The notes under the pieces were generated by a model that was given only the letters and a program-made list of their open reading frames with translations, was not told the DNA's origin and did no database searches. Positions 13,586 through 15,763 of a stretch of DNA of 54,491 nt are shown in pieces. Origin of the DNA: a virus (lineage: Duplodnaviria; Caudoviricetes); IMG/VR virus record IMGVR_UViG_3300024433_000007, positions 1 through 54,491 of that record; one strand, 5' to 3'. The translations under genes were made by a program, and so were the position numbers. Within the stretch, counting starts at the first letter, position 1. Every line of letters starts with the position of its first letter.

Positions 13586-14095
13586 ATGAAAATCATCGAG
13601 GCATTGAAACAAGTGAAGGATCTCCAAAGGAAGGCAGATGATCTGAAAATTTTAGTTAAAAATCACTGTGCCATCTCCTCATTGGAGACGGAGAAATATC
13701 CAGATCAGAAAAGGCAGGTGTCGGAATGGATACAGGCTCATTCAGATATATTGAAGGAGATTCTGAGACTTCGGATAGCCATCCAAAAGACGAATCTTGC
13801 TCATGAGGTTATAATCGGGCTTGGTGGAAAGCAGGTAACTAAGACGATAGCTGAGTTGATACATAGAAGAAGAGATCTGGCAAGGGAGGAATTATCCATG
13901 TGGGACGTTTTGGGAGATCGGGGCGTTAAGGAAGGCATGGGCACAGGGCCGACAGGTGACAAAATCGAGATCAAGATAAATAGATTCTACGATCCTGTCG
14001 AACGGGACAACAAAAAGGATCTTTTTGGAAGTGAGCCTTCCATTGTAGATTCGAAGCTTGAAGTAGTTAATGCGGTGACGGATCTTATCGAATAG
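13586..14095 (+). CDS. DIP1984-like coiled-coil protein
   Basis: MKIIEAL..KDLQRK..I.KTN..TIAE...RR..D.KL...NA.TDLIE matches the family pattern MKLAEAL..INRTN..N..TEL (recognised by eye). Confidence 0.7.
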   Translation: MKIIEALKQVKDLQRKADDLKILVKNHCAISSLETEKYPDQKRQVSEWIQAHSDILKEILRLRIAIQKTNLAHEVIIGLGGKQVTKTIAELIHRRRDLAREELSMWDVLGDRGVKEGMGTGPTGDKIEIKINRFYDPVERDNKKDLFGSEPSIVDSKLEVVNAVTDLIE

Positions 14096-14115
14096 AATAA
14101 TTGTTCTTTGAAAAC

Positions 14116-14422
14116 TTATCCTACAAGCAGAGATAAAAACTGGCAAAGGAGACGTGATTCATAGACGATACATATGATAACGCTATGCAAATAGCACTGG
14201 AATGCTAATCCAGCTAAGAATGCTCGGCTATGGTCGAGCTGAATCTCAAGGCAGCAAGGATCAAGCGTAAAGGCAGCAAGATTCAGGACATTCAAGGCAG
14301 AACGGTGCAAGGTAGTAAGGCAGAATCTCGATGCGAAAGCGGAGAGAATGTCCTAACAAAAGTTATGTTTTTCTCTTGTAGTTCATCCAGAAGCTCGTTA
14401 GGCTTCCTGTTTGGGAGGATAA
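14116..14422 (+). ncRNA. Putative ~300-nt structured ncRNA with an internal (N)AAG repeat tract
   Basis: Closing stem 14116-14130/14407-14422; hairpins GCTAT-GCAA-ATAGC, CTGGA/TCCAG, GCTCGGC/GTCGAGC, TCTC..GC-GAAA-GC..GAGA; ten 7-9-nt repeat units. Confidence 0.65.
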
Positions 14423-14423
14423 A

Positions 14424-14470
14424 TAATTATTTATCCTGCTACTTTTGAGGGTGGCAGGAATAAGTAATTA
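14424..14470 (+). other. Long hairpin after the putative ncRNA (processing/termination)
   Basis: TAATTA-TTTAT-CCTGCTAC / GTGGCAGG-A-ATAAG-TAATTA. Confidence 0.55.
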
Positions 14471-14479
14471 AACCTTTAA

Positions 14480-14701
14480 ATGGAGAATAAAATGACAAAA
14501 TTTAGTAAGAAGCATTACAAACTGTTGGCAGAAGTTTTGAAGAAAAGGGTCGAAGAAATACGAGGAATGCACATGACCTCAGAAAACATAGGAGCAATGA
14601 AAGAGGTGCATAAAATCTTTGATACATTAAGTAATCTCTTCAAGGCAGATAACAAGAAATTCGATCCAGAAAAATTCAAAAAGGAAGTCTGTGGAGGATG
14701 A
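14480..14701 (+). CDS. Hypothetical protein
   Basis: FSKKHYKLLAEVL..LFKADNKKFDPEKF pattern; real start may be 14492. Confidence 0.75.
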   Translation: MENKMTKFSKKHYKLLAEVLKKRVEEIRGMHMTSENIGAMKEVHKIFDTLSNLFKADNKKFDPEKFKKEVCGG

Positions 14702-15061: not shown

Positions 15062-15212
15062 TGTAGACGTGCTACAGCTGACCATCACGTGTGGATTCGT
15101 CTAACTAACAGTTGTATTCGAATCCCAAAAAGGTCGCTGCGGCTGAGGCATCGGGAGATAATTTGACCGCATTCAGCAAATACTGATCTTGTGAGCAGAA
15201 ACTCCCGATGTC
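15062..15212 (+). other. Structured intergenic RNA element upstream of HNH gene
   Basis: Stems TGTAG/CTACA, GACC/GGTC, GGATTCG/CGAATCC, GGCATCGGGAG/CTCCCGATGTC. Confidence 0.5.
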
Positions 15213-15241
15213 CTTACTATCATATTCTAAGGAGATATAGA

Positions 15242-15763
15242 ATGGAACGAACAGAAAAAGAGATCTGGAAACCAATTAAAGATTTTCCTGATTATGAAGT
15301 ATCTAATTTAGGAAGAATAAAATCTTACAAAAGAGTTGCTCCTTGGAAAGATCCTCTCATTTCGGATGGATCTATAAGTAAAGAGGGATATTATAGAGTT
15401 ACACTTTTTAGACAGAGTAAACCATCCCATTTTCTTGTACACCGTCTTGTCTTGGAGACTTTTGTCGGACCATGCCCTTTGGGATGTCAAACGAATCATA
15501 AAAACGGCATTAAGATAGATAACAGACTTAAGAATTTAGAGTGGGTCACATTCGGCGATAATATAGAACATGCCTATCGAATTGGTCTGAAAACTAATAG
15601 AGGTATCATGAATTCCAATGCGAAGTTACGAAATGAGGATGTTTTAGAGATACGAAGATTAGCTAAGAAGGGTATTAAAAAGACTATAATCGCCGAAATG
15701 TTCAAGATAAGTTCAGAGAATGTATATACAATAGCGTATCAATTAAGTTGGAGACATATATGA
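15242..15763 (+). CDS. NUMOD4-HNH homing endonuclease
   Basis: EIWKPI..YEVSNLGRIKS (NUMOD4); VHRLV..NHKNGIKIDNRLKNLEW (HNH); C-terminal HTH. Confidence 0.92.
   Translation: MERTEKEIWKPIKDFPDYEVSNLGRIKSYKRVAPWKDPLISDGSISKEGYYRVTLFRQSKPSHFLVHRLVLETFVGPCPLGCQTNHKNGIKIDNRLKNLEWVTFGDNIEHAYRIGLKTNRGIMNSNAKLRNEDVLEIRRLAKKGIKKTIIAEMFKISSENVYTIAYQLSWRHI

What the first reader, a model, noticed from the sequence alone, without database searches (positions are those of the whole stretch)
13586..14470. DIP1984-like protein followed by a structured, repeat-containing ~300-nt RNA: candidate ribonucleoprotein system
Seen: 20 nt after the stop, a 7+7 bp stem (14116-14130 with 14407-14422) encloses several hairpins, two with GNRA loops (GCAA, GAAA). 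It also encloses a purine-rich tract of ten 7-9 nt units (CAAGGCAG, CAAGGAT, CAAGCGT, AAAGGCAG, CAAGATT, CAGGACATT, CAAGGCAG, AACGGTG, CAAGGTAG, TAAGGCAG; 14247-14323) bracketed by GAATCTC direct repeats. A separate hairpin follows. This is an unusually long gap in a tightly packed operon. The protein resembles the uncharacterised DIP1984 family (by eye). Inference: an oligomeric coiled-coil protein binds the repeated AAG units one per subunit. It may act as an RNA-scaffolded complex, a type-III-TA-like pair or a decoy.
Basis: partly seen in the sequence, partly recalled or inferred. Interest (0 to 1): 0.85.

Follow-up and report, generated by a model that had tools for sequence, protein, structure and literature searches.

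The report
New phage RNA with partner protein
The long gap after this phage gene encodes a conserved, intricately folded RNA of about 310 bases with a regular row of AAG triplets, found next to the same unstudied protein gene in over a hundred uncultivated phages, so the two probably work together as a new RNA-protein particle.

Summary
Window 14116-14422 (+) is one member of a conserved RNA family that Rfam 15 does not contain.

- **Structure:** on 50 distinct homologues, the closing helix P1 and the 3' helix P3 are 91% paired against 69% in shuffles, and 21 of 28 pairs show compensatory changes. A pseudoknot joins the invariant 5' block to the P3 loop. A second 5' pseudoknot also covaries.
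- **AAG tract:** it is about 84 nt long, with a mean of 8.3 AAG spaced 7-8 nt apart.
- **tRNA cassette:** relatives carry a tRNA, a circularly permuted tRNA, or nothing between the 5' domain and the tract. The window keeps only a cloverleaf relic.
- **Linkage to the gene:** it holds both ways, in 76 of 80 gene loci and 28 of 30 RNA-pattern hits. The strand is always the same, and the RNA can lie on either side of the gene.
- **Protein:** it has the fold of 3KDQ (Z 12.8). The model supports a homodimer (0.80 against 0.00 for controls).

That the two form a ribonucleoprotein is inferred, not shown. A type III TA reading is not supported. The scan noted the same pattern on another genome (e1-6262185).

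The parts
13586..14095 (+). Gene for a 169-aa DUF6847/DIP1984-like protein, the partner of the RNA
   Evidence: ORF. NCBIfam DIP1984_fam E 2.7e-10, below cut-off. Pfam DUF6847 E 3.7e-5, below cut-off. AF2 model pLDDT 93.9. Best solved fold 3kdq, Z 12.8 over 148 residues, Foldseek E 4.8e-4. Homodimer supported by the model, ipSAE 0.80 against best control 0.00.
14116..14422 (+). The whole structured RNA element, from the 5' strand of P1 to the 3' strand of P1
   Evidence: Homologous element in relatives (nhmmer). Alignment A2 of 50 distinct elements. Covariation. No Rfam family.
14116..14130 (+). P1 5' strands: outer 14116-14122 and inner 14124-14130, pairing with 14416-14422 and 14407-14413
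   Evidence: All 14 pairs show changes on both sides; 89.3% of cells are paired (helix 1).
14129..14143 (+). Nearly invariant A-rich block (AGAGAUAAAAAC). It ends in the 5' strand of the pseudoknot, CUGG at 14140-14143, which pairs with CCAG at 14387-14390.
   Evidence: Invariant and near-invariant columns. Pseudoknot 81.0% paired against 59.1% in shuffles; 48 compensatory cells against 14.3; slid partners 23-53%.
14153..14177 (+). 5' domain pseudoknot around a conserved RCGAUA motif. S1 is 14153-14155 with 14165-14167; S2 is 14159-14163 with 14173-14177.
   Evidence: S2: a sequence's own flanks pair at mean -5.56 kcal/mol against -2.48 for flanks swapped between sequences; 0 of 1000 permutations were as low, on the 27 of 50 elements with the motif. 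S1's CGU/ACG versus CGC/GCG switch was read by eye from the same output.
14182..14239 (+). Three hairpins in cloverleaf order: a 5-bp stem with GCAA loop, a 5-bp stem with a 7-nt loop, and a 7-bp stem with UAUG loop. They sit where relatives carry a tRNA or permuted tRNA and look like a degenerate relic.
   Evidence: Fold. No tRNA by ARAGORN or Rfam at E up to 10. In A2 the hairpins align under the D and anticodon arms of relatives' tRNAs. tRNAs in relatives.
14247..14323 (+). AAG array: about ten units of 7-9 nt, each built round AAG or a one-base variant
   Evidence: Per-column conservation of the A-A-G positions. Across 50 tracts: modal length 84 nt, 6-11 AAG (mean 8.26), 413 observed against 138.5 expected, spacing 7 nt (133 cases) or 8 nt (107 cases).
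14327..14344 (+). Hairpin P2: CUC ... GAG closing a GC-GAAA-GC hairpin, directly before the conserved GAAUGUCC block
   Evidence: Fold. By eye on A2, relatives keep a hairpin of variable length and sequence here. No pair count was made.
14346..14406 (+). P3, a long irregular helix. GAA 14346-14348 pairs with UUC 14404-14406; CCUAAC 14352-14357 with GUUAGG 14397-14402; AAGUU 14360-14364 with 14392-14396. It encloses a U-rich loop that holds the pseudoknot 3' strand 14387-14390.
   Evidence: Helices 2 and 3: 93.3% and 92.5% of cells paired; 7 of 11 pairs in helix 3 have changes on both sides, with up to 6 pair types per position.
14407..14422 (+). P1 3' strands: 14407-14413 and 14416-14422
   Evidence: helix 1.
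14424..14470 (+). Separate strong hairpin after the element with no U tail. It is specific to this window and may stabilise or end the transcript.
   Evidence: -23.1 kcal/mol, z -7.30. Not called as a terminator. Not seen as a conserved feature in relatives (by eye).
14230..14448 (+). 72-aa open frame inside the RNA, judged not to be a gene
   Evidence: No Pfam, NCBIfam or PHROG match. 33 of 50 homologous elements have no + strand ORF of 60 aa or more. Weak tblastn matches follow the nucleotide conservation.

Best explanation
Window 14116-14422 (+) encodes a member of a previously undescribed family of phage non-coding RNAs, about 270-400 nt long.

**Architecture (shown).** A 14-bp helix P1 joins the two ends. 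From 5' to 3' it encloses:
- an invariant A-rich block whose last four bases form a pseudoknot with the loop of the 3' helix P3;
- a small second pseudoknot;
- a variable cassette (a tRNA, a circularly permuted tRNA with a capped acceptor stem, or a relic as in this window);
- a single-stranded array of about 84 nt carrying roughly ten AAG triplets every 7-8 nt;
- hairpin P2 and helix P3.

**Linkage (shown).** The RNA and the adjacent 169-aa DUF6847/DIP1984-like gene form a two-part module. It has moved together through very different phage genomes, always on one strand and in either order.

**Mechanism (inferred).**
- The RNA is co-transcribed with the gene.
- The pseudoknotted core and P1 make a stable, nuclease-resistant scaffold.
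- The protein, probably a dimer or a higher assembly of dimers, binds this scaffold. The evenly spaced AAG triplets are the most likely repeated contact sites, either for the protein or for a host factor.
- In relatives, the tRNA cassette acts as a built-in RNase P / 3'-end processing signal. It would split the transcript between the 5' domain and the array, leaving two pieces held together by P1 and the pseudoknot.
- The particle acts early in infection on host RNA or translation machinery.

The cellular target is unknown.
For: **RNA family**
- The 384-nt gap finds homologous non-coding stretches next to the gene in relatives whose proteins are only 43-69% identical.
- A2 aligns 50 distinct elements.

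**Structure**
- P1 and P3: 91.0% of cells paired against 69.3% in shuffles (0 of 500 as high); 21 of 28 pairs have changes on both sides; 345 compensatory cells against 108.5; slid controls 33-51%.
- Pseudoknot: 81.0% against 59.1% (0 of 500), slid 23-53%.
- 5' pseudoknot stem: 0 of 1000 permutations as good.

**Strand**
- G-U/U-G cells 90 against A-C/C-A 40 in the 32 pairs.
- All profile hits lie on the gene's strand.

**Not coding:**

**AAG array:**

**Linkage, gene to RNA**
- 76 of 80 gene loci have the element at E <= 1e-3. 49 of the 80 supplied the profile, so the real test is 27 of the other 31.
- Of the 4 misses, L076 has the element 1.8 kb downstream (L120), L100 is cut 106 nt after the gene, L094 has a divergent upstream copy by eye, and L083 is unexplained.

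**Linkage, RNA to gene**
- 25 of 30 pattern hits have the gene on the same strand within the fetched locus.
- 2 more are cut loci of contigs known to hold the gene, and 1 has it about 1 kb upstream.
- Of the 13 contigs that the protein searches had not found, 11 have the gene.

**Other**
- No other protein family is shared by more than 6 of 25 loci within 3 kb.
- Order varies: the RNA lies upstream in a clade with SH-aLRT 99, plus L036 elsewhere on a quick tree.
- Protein dimer: ipSAE 0.80, best of 3 controls 0.00, at least 98% contact agreement, partner pLDDT at least 92. That mark was reached by 20 of 30 proteins solved as pairs of one chain and 1 of 23 solved as single chains.
Against: - Nothing shows that the RNA is made, or where it starts and ends.
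- Nothing shows that protein and RNA touch. Linkage could reflect co-transcription or a shared regulatory need.
- The protein is not basic (median pI 8.1, median net charge +1.5 over 24 members), and its fold has no known RNA-binding relative.
- A two-fold dimer does not by itself explain ten one-directional sites.
- L107 has a short upstream element without the AAG tract or the 5' strand of P3, yet keeps the gene.
- L113 has a partial 3' end and no gene in a record rated 95% complete.
- In L120 and L122/L139, other ORFs lie between gene and RNA.
- The dimer pass may lean on the solved 3KDQ crystal, which has several chains.
- I derived the helices partly from these same sequences, so the slid controls are generous to them.
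- The tree is the quick one; the careful search did not finish.
Confidence: 0.6

Rival explanations
1. The RNA works on its own, like the large ornate phage RNAs GOLLD and ROOL. It would be a self-folding, possibly self-assembling RNA of the phage tRNA region, and the neighbouring protein would be only a helper (chaperone, processing or stabilising factor) or a co-regulated passenger.
For: - In relatives the element sits at the head of tRNA clusters and often holds a tRNA.
- Two pseudoknots and long-range helices show an elaborate fold.
- The protein is not basic.
Against: - According to the same passages, GOLLD and ROOL have no identified protein partner. Here the gene accompanies the RNA in 28 of 30 RNA-pattern hits and survives at least one change of order.
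- No match to the GOLLD or ROOL models.
- The element is half their size or less.
- A long unpaired AAG array is an odd feature for an RNA-only assembly.
Confidence: 0.2
2. The AAG array is a sponge or decoy for a host factor rather than for the phage protein. About 59% of the triplets read AAGG and most are preceded by C or U, so the units resemble partial Shine-Dalgarno elements that could pair with the 3' tail of 16S rRNA. Alternatively they could titrate a host single-strand RNA-binding protein. In that case the DUF6847 protein would load, protect or deliver the RNA.
For: - In the 50 tracts AGG is the second commonest triplet (243) after AAG (413), and CAA (218) and UAA (198) follow.
- The module lies among early or middle small genes on the + strand.
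- The Kretsch preprint passages say ribosomes bound GOLLD in pull-downs.
- That YAAGG is complementary to the 16S tail is recalled knowledge, not a call.
Against: - Only A-A-G is near invariant; the following G is not.
- AT-rich members use UAAGU units (L016 and L026).
- The host and its 16S tail are unknown.
- No test of any host factor was possible.
Confidence: 0.12
3. The element is a cis-acting untranslated region that controls expression of the DUF6847 gene: an autoregulatory 3' UTR, or a leader where it lies upstream.
For: - It starts 21 nt after the stop in the window.
- Where it is upstream, it ends 15-35 nt before the start codon.
- No promoter or terminator of its own stands out.
Against: - The same RNA occurs on either side of the gene, and up to 1.8 kb away with ORFs between.
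- A fold of about 300 nt with two pseudoknots, a tRNA cassette and a fixed-length array is far more than known autoregulatory operators need (recalled).
Confidence: 0.05
4. It is a type III toxin-antitoxin-like pair, in which a repeat RNA neutralises a toxic protein.
Against: - No tandem repeats. The units are 7-8 nt, not whole duplicated pseudoknot units.
- The RNA is usually downstream of the gene.
- No PADLOC family.
- No nuclease-like fold.
- The family is in viral contigs: 1 locus in genome contigs, none in plasmids at E <= 1.
Confidence: 0.03

Closest known systems
GOLLD and ROOL RNAs (large ornate phage or prophage RNAs; Rfam families)
   Same: All are phage-encoded, elaborately folded with pseudoknots, of unknown function, and found at or near tRNA clusters. 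tRNAs are sometimes embedded in a variable region of GOLLD (passages of 10.1101/2024.12.08.627333; tRNAs inside this family).
   Different: There is no match to their covariance models. This RNA is 270-400 nt, against about 580 nt (ROOL; recalled) and over 800 nt for many GOLLD members. It has a long unpaired AAG array and a dedicated neighbouring protein gene, whereas no protein partner is known for ROOL or GOLLD (same passages).
TRAP and HutP with their NAG-repeat RNAs (Bacillus attenuation proteins; recalled, no call)
   Same: The RNA carries a row of NAG triplets at a fixed short spacing. As I recall it, TRAP reads 11 GAG/UAG triplets 2-3 nt apart and HutP reads UAG every 7 nt. Here there are about ten AAG every 7-8 nt.
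   Different: The protein here is a helical bundle with the 3KDQ fold, not the TRAP or HutP fold. Only a dimer was tested. The RNA is a closed, pseudoknotted particle in a phage, not a leader that switches a terminator. Binding was not tested.
Ro60 (Rsr) with bacterial and phage Y RNA-like YrlA (recalled, no call)
   Same: A protein gene lies next to a non-coding RNA whose ends form a long stem and which holds a tRNA-like module. As I recall YrlA, its acceptor-like stem is capped and the module joins the body through the anticodon-like stem. That is the topology of the permuted cassettes in L050, L052, L078, L087 and L108, and in L093 and L099 by eye.
   Different: There is no Y RNA match in Rfam. 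The partner is DUF6847, not a TROVE/Ro60 protein. The cassette is optional (about 17 of 50 lack it, as does the window). YrlA has no AAG array and no 3' pseudoknot core.
DIP1984 family / DUF6847 / PDB 3KDQ (uncharacterised bacterial protein, formerly annotated 'septicolysin')
   Same: Whole-length fold match (Z 12.8, 148 of 169 residues, 23% identity; Foldseek E 4.8e-4). End-to-end HMM alignment.
   Different: Scores fall below both curated cut-offs (40.6 against 70; 24.1 against 27). This is a phage-borne branch with an invariant MKIIEALK start. Whether cellular members have any partner RNA could not be tested. The equation of 'septicolysin' with DIP1984 is recalled; one paper in the listing holds the word DIP1984, and I did not read it.
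ToxIN-type (type III) toxin-antitoxin systems (recalled)
   Same: A protein gene lies beside a repeat-bearing RNA.
   Different: See the membership test. There are no tandem repeat units, no nuclease fold, the gene order is usually the opposite, and the carrier is a phage rather than a host.

Membership tests
DIP1984 family (NCBIfam NF038048) / Pfam DUF6847 (PF20935) | Score at or above the curated cut-off of the family model | tested here: not met
   NF038048: 40.6 bits against cut-off 70, E 2.7e-10, aligned 2-167 to 1-149 of 149. PF20935: 24.1 bits against 27, E 3.7e-5. Many close homologues carry a precomputed PF20935 hit.
DIP1984 family (NCBIfam NF038048) / Pfam DUF6847 (PF20935) | Same fold as the solved family member (3KDQ, Corynebacterium diphtheriae) | tested here: met
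   VIA-align Z 12.8, rmsd 7.3, 148 aligned, well above the next rows (Z <= 9.6, which cover only residues 1-74). Foldseek E 4.8e-4, TM 0.57-0.63. Verdict: a distant, phage-borne branch of the superfamily, not a member by the curated threshold.
Type III toxin-antitoxin (ToxIN-like) | Antitoxin made of tandem direct repeats of a whole RNA unit (tens of nt) | tested here: not met
   TRF finds none at score >= 30. The only repeat families are 20-nt, 80%-identical stretches caused by the AAG spacing.
Type III toxin-antitoxin (ToxIN-like) | Toxin is an endoribonuclease of a known defence family | tested here: inconclusive
   No PADLOC family at E <= 0.01. The best folds are 3KDQ and generic helical hairpins. 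Absence from a list does not exclude it.
GOLLD / ROOL | Match to the Rfam covariance model | tested here: not met
   No family at gathering score in the window or in 20 related loci, apart from tRNA, tmRNA and one sRNA model. Only chance-level hits at E <= 10 in 13900-14600.
GOLLD / ROOL | Phage location at tRNA clusters, with tRNA sometimes inside the RNA | tested here: met
   Met in relatives. The window phage itself has no tRNA.
TRAP/HutP-type NAG-repeat recognition | Regularly spaced NAG triplets in single-stranded RNA | tested here: met
   AAG at 7 nt (133) or 8 nt (107) of 363 spacings; tract length mode 84 nt.
TRAP/HutP-type NAG-repeat recognition | Ring oligomer of the TRAP or HutP fold that reads one triplet per subunit | tested here: inconclusive
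   The model is a helical bundle whose only whole-length fold match is 3KDQ. Neither TRAP nor HutP is among the listed rows, which does not exclude them. The model supports a homodimer. Larger assemblies and RNA binding were not tested.
Ro60-Y RNA (YrlA) | Y RNA model match and a neighbouring Ro60/TROVE gene | tested here: not met
   No Y RNA family in the Rfam scans. The only neighbour shared by all loci is the DUF6847 gene.
tRNA / tmRNA | Detected by ARAGORN or the Rfam tRNA or tmRNA models | tested here: not met
   Window: none. Relatives: the embedded tRNAs score 30-57 bits in Rfam, below the 58-72 bits of most free-standing tRNAs in the L010 array. Anticodons vary and include A34 forms (aat, agg, act) and odd loops.

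The most novel reading that the evidence does not exclude
This would be a new class of phage ribonucleoprotein. A double-pseudoknot RNA clamp presents about ten AAG triplets at a 7-8 nt pitch, and these order a chain or ring of DUF6847 dimers. That would be NAG-triplet reading of the TRAP/HutP kind, invented again by an unrelated helical fold. A tRNA or circularly permuted tRNA cassette would serve as a built-in RNase P / 3'-end processing signal that turns the transcript into a two-piece RNA. The particle would be an early host-takeover or counter-defence device acting on tRNA or ribosome function.
Probability: 0.25. Interest if true: 0.9.

Novelty: categorically new. Interest (0 to 1): 0.8.

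Why it matters
- **A new large RNA class:** elaborately folded RNAs of this size are rare finds. This one has clear covariation, two pseudoknots and an unusual fixed-pitch triplet array.
- **A candidate partner:** unlike GOLLD and ROOL, it comes with a protein of a family whose solved structure (3KDQ) has had no function since 2009. That makes both the RNA and DUF6847/DIP1984 directly testable by co-expression, pull-down and cryo-EM.
- **Abundance:** the family includes 1052 protein clusters at 90% identity with E <= 0.001 and 988 representatives at 50% identity. It is absent from 50,697 cultured-phage records at the sensitivity used, so it marks a blind spot of isolate-based phage biology.
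- **Natural experiment:** the normal, permuted and lost tRNA cassettes show what a tRNA shape is used for inside a larger RNA.

Tried and rejected
- **Expression:** The look-up of sequencing runs listed no RNA holder. It listed 8 DNA runs, one of them the likely source.
- **Cultured relatives:** no blastn match to the region. No tblastn match for three family proteins in the phage collection. None in plasmids at E <= 1.
- **Cellular genomes:** Genome contigs gave one locus, on a MAG contig of 39 kb.
- **Solved structures by sequence:** nothing but a chance lysozyme hit at E 0.076.
- **PHROGs:** only a weak 'tail fiber' hit over the N-terminal helices (E 0.0016). I read it as coiled-coil noise.
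- **Protein Atlas:** only unnamed or DUF6847 clusters.
- **BFVD:** only uncharacterised phage proteins.
- **Block A with the whole U-rich P3 loop:** a general duplex test gave a mean of -5.68 against -5.35 kcal/mol for shuffled loops. I rejected that pairing; only the 4-bp pseudoknot stands.
- **My first permuted-tRNA classifier:** it was too loose (17 calls). A stricter one replaced it.
- **Full covariance model:** not built. A 16-sequence seed already had 405 columns against the limit of 400, and a model of about 300 positions would exceed the calibration time.
- **Cellular DIP1984 genes:** whether they have a partner RNA stays untested. The control search showed only that Deinococcus radiodurans has a member, and gave no locus. 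The search of protein representatives lists only the best 150, all phage-like.
- **Promoter/terminator scan:** nothing telling.
- **Literature:** no paper with DUF6847 or PF20935. 'DIP1984' appears once, in a plasmid-epidemiology paper (listing only). '3KDQ' appears twice, in unrelated papers. The 35 papers concern 'septicolysin' annotations (listing only).
- **Virus RNA catalogue:** PMC10690425 holds 10,006 candidate structured RNAs of viruses. I read it only as find-passages. Its supplementary tables, which may contain pieces of this element, are closed.
Full report
**What is in the window.** The window is a 54.5-kb IMG/VR virus record. On the + strand, among small early or middle genes, lies a 169-aa ORF at 13586-14095. 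It is followed by a 384-nt gap before the next gene at 14480. The gap folds better than its shuffles on the + strand (z -3.31) and less so on the - strand (z -2.32). Rfam 15 has no family for it, either at gathering scores over the whole window or at E <= 10 over 13900-14600, where only chance-level snoRNA and miRNA rows appear. ARAGORN finds no tRNA or tmRNA in the window.

**The protein.**
- It matches NCBIfam DIP1984_fam end to end (E 2.7e-10, 40.6 bits, cut-off 70) and Pfam DUF6847 (24.1 bits, cut-off 27).
- An AlphaFold2 model built on 24 homologues is confident (pLDDT 93.9). It shows four long helices and a small sheet.
- The only whole-length solved match is 3KDQ, an uncharacterised Corynebacterium diphtheriae protein (Foldseek E 4.8e-4; VIA-align Z 12.8 over 148 residues, next rows Z <= 9.6 on the first helical hairpin only).
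- The complex model supports a symmetric homodimer: ipSAE 0.80, best of three controls 0.00, at least 98% contact agreement, partner pLDDT at least 92. That mark was reached by 20 of 30 proteins solved as pairs of one chain and 1 of 23 solved as single chains. It does not show binding, and the pass may lean on the solved relative.
- The family is large and unnamed: 1052 clusters at E <= 0.001 and 988 representatives at 50% identity.
- It is near neutral in charge and matches no PADLOC defence family.

**The gap is a conserved RNA family.** A protein-guided scan of viral contigs gave 26 loci with 27-69% protein identity. nhmmer with the window's gap then found a collinear stretch of about 310 nt beside the gene in 11 loci at E <= 1e-7, and in 5 more at E up to 0.11. 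A scan with the protein alignment found 95 relatives, of which 80 loci were kept. Reading them shows one architecture, from 5' to 3':
- the outer and inner strands of P1;
- a nearly invariant A-rich block;
- a small hairpin or pseudoknot round an RCGAUA motif;
- a variable cassette;
- the AAG array;
- hairpin P2;
- a conserved GAAYGWCC block leading into the long helix P3;
- the 3' strands of P1.

**Covariation.** I aligned 50 distinct elements: the window plus 49 loci chosen by two sequence anchors, leaving out four anchor mis-calls, L039, L046, L057 and L066.
- For P1 (14 pairs) and P3 (14 pairs), 91.0% of cells are standard pairs against 69.3% in shuffles (0 of 500 as high). 21 of 28 pairs have changes on both sides. 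There are 345 compensatory cells against 108.5. Sliding the partner by 1-3 columns drops pairing to 33-51%.
- The four bases that end the A-rich block (14140-14143) pair with the four bases just 5' of the P3 3' strand (14387-14390). Pairing is 81.0% against 59.1%, with 48 compensatory cells against 14.3, and slid partners at 23-53%. This pseudoknot would stack on P3 and lay the invariant A-run along it (inference).
- A broader pairing of the block with the U-rich loop is not supported.
- Round the RCGAUA motif, each sequence's own flanks pair far better than flanks swapped between sequences. The means are -5.56 and -2.48 kcal/mol, 0 of 1000 permutations were as low, and 27 of 50 elements have the motif. 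The crossing 3-bp stem switches CGU/ACG to CGC/GCG by eye in the same output.
- G-U cells outnumber A-C cells 90 to 40, and every profile hit lies on the gene's strand. The + strand RNA is therefore the functional form.
- Caveat: I read the helices from these sequences, so the slid controls flatter them. The many pair types per position do not depend on that.

**Not a gene.** The 72-aa frame 14230-14448 has no family. 33 of 50 homologous elements have no + strand ORF of 60 aa or more, and the weak tblastn matches track nucleotide conservation.

**The AAG array.** Across the 50 elements the tract has a modal length of 84 nt (46 of 50 lie between 75 and 88 nt). It holds 6-11 AAG (mean 8.26), 413 in all against 138.5 expected. 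Successive AAG starts are 7 nt (133 cases) or 8 nt (107 cases) apart, with 15-16 nt as the next class. The A, A and G columns are individually near invariant. TRF finds no tandem repeat. These are fixed sites at a fixed pitch, not slippage products.

**The cassette.** Between the 5' domain and the array, relatives carry one of the following.
- **A tRNA:** ARAGORN of 50, and 2 more are visible by motif order, L073 and L097. Anticodons vary widely and include A34 forms and malformed loops. Rfam scores are mostly 30-57 bits.
- **A circularly permuted tRNA:** the T arm is followed by the acceptor 3' strand, often CCA, a short loop, the acceptor 5' strand and the D arm. The two acceptor strands are complementary (L050 6 of 7, L052 7 of 7, L078 7 of 7, L108 5 of 7; L087, L093, L099, L084 and L120 by eye).
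- **A lone T arm:** 5 elements.
- **No detectable tRNA:** about 17, including the window.

In the window, three hairpins in cloverleaf order remain. Both tRNA forms would be cut by tRNA-end processing at the same place in the larger RNA, so the cassette may be a processing signal. This is inference.

**Linkage.**
- **Gene to RNA:** a profile of A2 finds the element in 76 of 80 gene loci at E <= 1e-3. 49 of these loci supplied the profile, so 27 of the remaining 31 is the test, and some of those are near-duplicates. The four misses are L076 (element 1.8 kb downstream in L120), L100 (locus cut 106 nt after the gene), L094 (divergent upstream copy by eye) and L083 (unexplained).
- **RNA to gene:** a pattern drawn only from the 3' domain hit 30 viral stretches. 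25 hold the gene on the same strand within the locus. L128 and L129 are cut loci of contigs already known to have it. L122 has it about 1 kb upstream. L119 lacks the rest of the architecture and looks like chance. L113 has a partial 3' end, and its record has no gene.
- **Neighbours:** no other protein family is shared by more than 6 of 25 loci within 3 kb.
- **Order:** in a clade with SH-aLRT 99, and once elsewhere (L036), the RNA lies upstream of the gene. This rests on a quick tree, because the careful search did not finish.

**What it is not.**
- It is not a type III toxin-antitoxin pair.
- It is not GOLLD, ROOL, Y RNA, tmRNA or any other Rfam family.
- It is not found in cultured phages or plasmids at the sensitivity used.

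**What it most likely is.** It is a two-part phage module that forms an RNA-protein particle. That step rests on linkage alone. Expression, ends, binding, stoichiometry and target are all untested. The closest analogies are:
- GOLLD and ROOL, for setting and embedded tRNAs;
- TRAP and HutP, for spaced NAG triplets (recalled);
- Ro60-YrlA, for a protein gene beside an RNA with a capped-acceptor tRNA mimic (recalled).

None of these passes a membership test. The scan's index holds a first-reader note of the same pattern on another genome (e1-6262185), which fits the family being widespread.

Noticed in passing
L050, L052, L078, L087 (= L020), L108, L093, L099, L084, L120: Circularly permuted tRNA-like modules inside the element. 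The T arm is followed by the acceptor 3' strand (often with CCA), a 3-7 nt loop, the acceptor 5' strand and the D arm. The anticodon-stem position joins the rest of the RNA.
   Followed up: partly
L012:2306-2661 (+): A phage-encoded tmRNA (tag ANPDLALQAA, Rfam 116 bits) lies just upstream of the DUF6847 gene. tRNAs lie further upstream at 797-957 and more tRNA-like sequence between the gene and the element.
   Followed up: no
L010:3594-5626 (+): An array of 17 tRNA genes starts right after the DUF6847 gene, and the element is embedded near its start. The module heads a tRNA island.
   Followed up: no
L107:1371-1480 (+): A short upstream element that keeps the A-rich block, the pseudoknot strands and the 3' end but lacks the AAG array and the 5' strand of P3. 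It is either a decayed copy or a minimal form.
   Followed up: no
L113:4763-4807 (-): A partial 3' end of the element (AAGUU ... AACUU ... GGCUUCC) at the end of an ORF, in a record rated 95% complete that has no DUF6847 gene. It may be a remnant.
   Followed up: partly
window 15191-15763 (+): An HNH homing-endonuclease gene (PHROG 59, E 8.6e-44) lies about 0.7 kb downstream of the module.
   Followed up: no
window 14424-14470 (+): A very stable hairpin (z -7.3) without a U tail lies between the element and the next gene's ribosome-binding site. It was not seen in relatives.
   Followed up: partly
L009:2281-2385 (-): An Rfam match above gathering score to HPnc0580, a Helicobacter sRNA model (49.6 bits against 37), in an environmental phage contig. 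It is probably a low-complexity artefact.
   Followed up: no
L030, L053, L037, L072 and others: Embedded tRNAs with A at position 34 (anticodons aat, agg, act, att) or with 2- and 4-base 'anticodons'. This is unusual for decoding tRNAs and suggests the anticodon is not under selection.
   Followed up: partly
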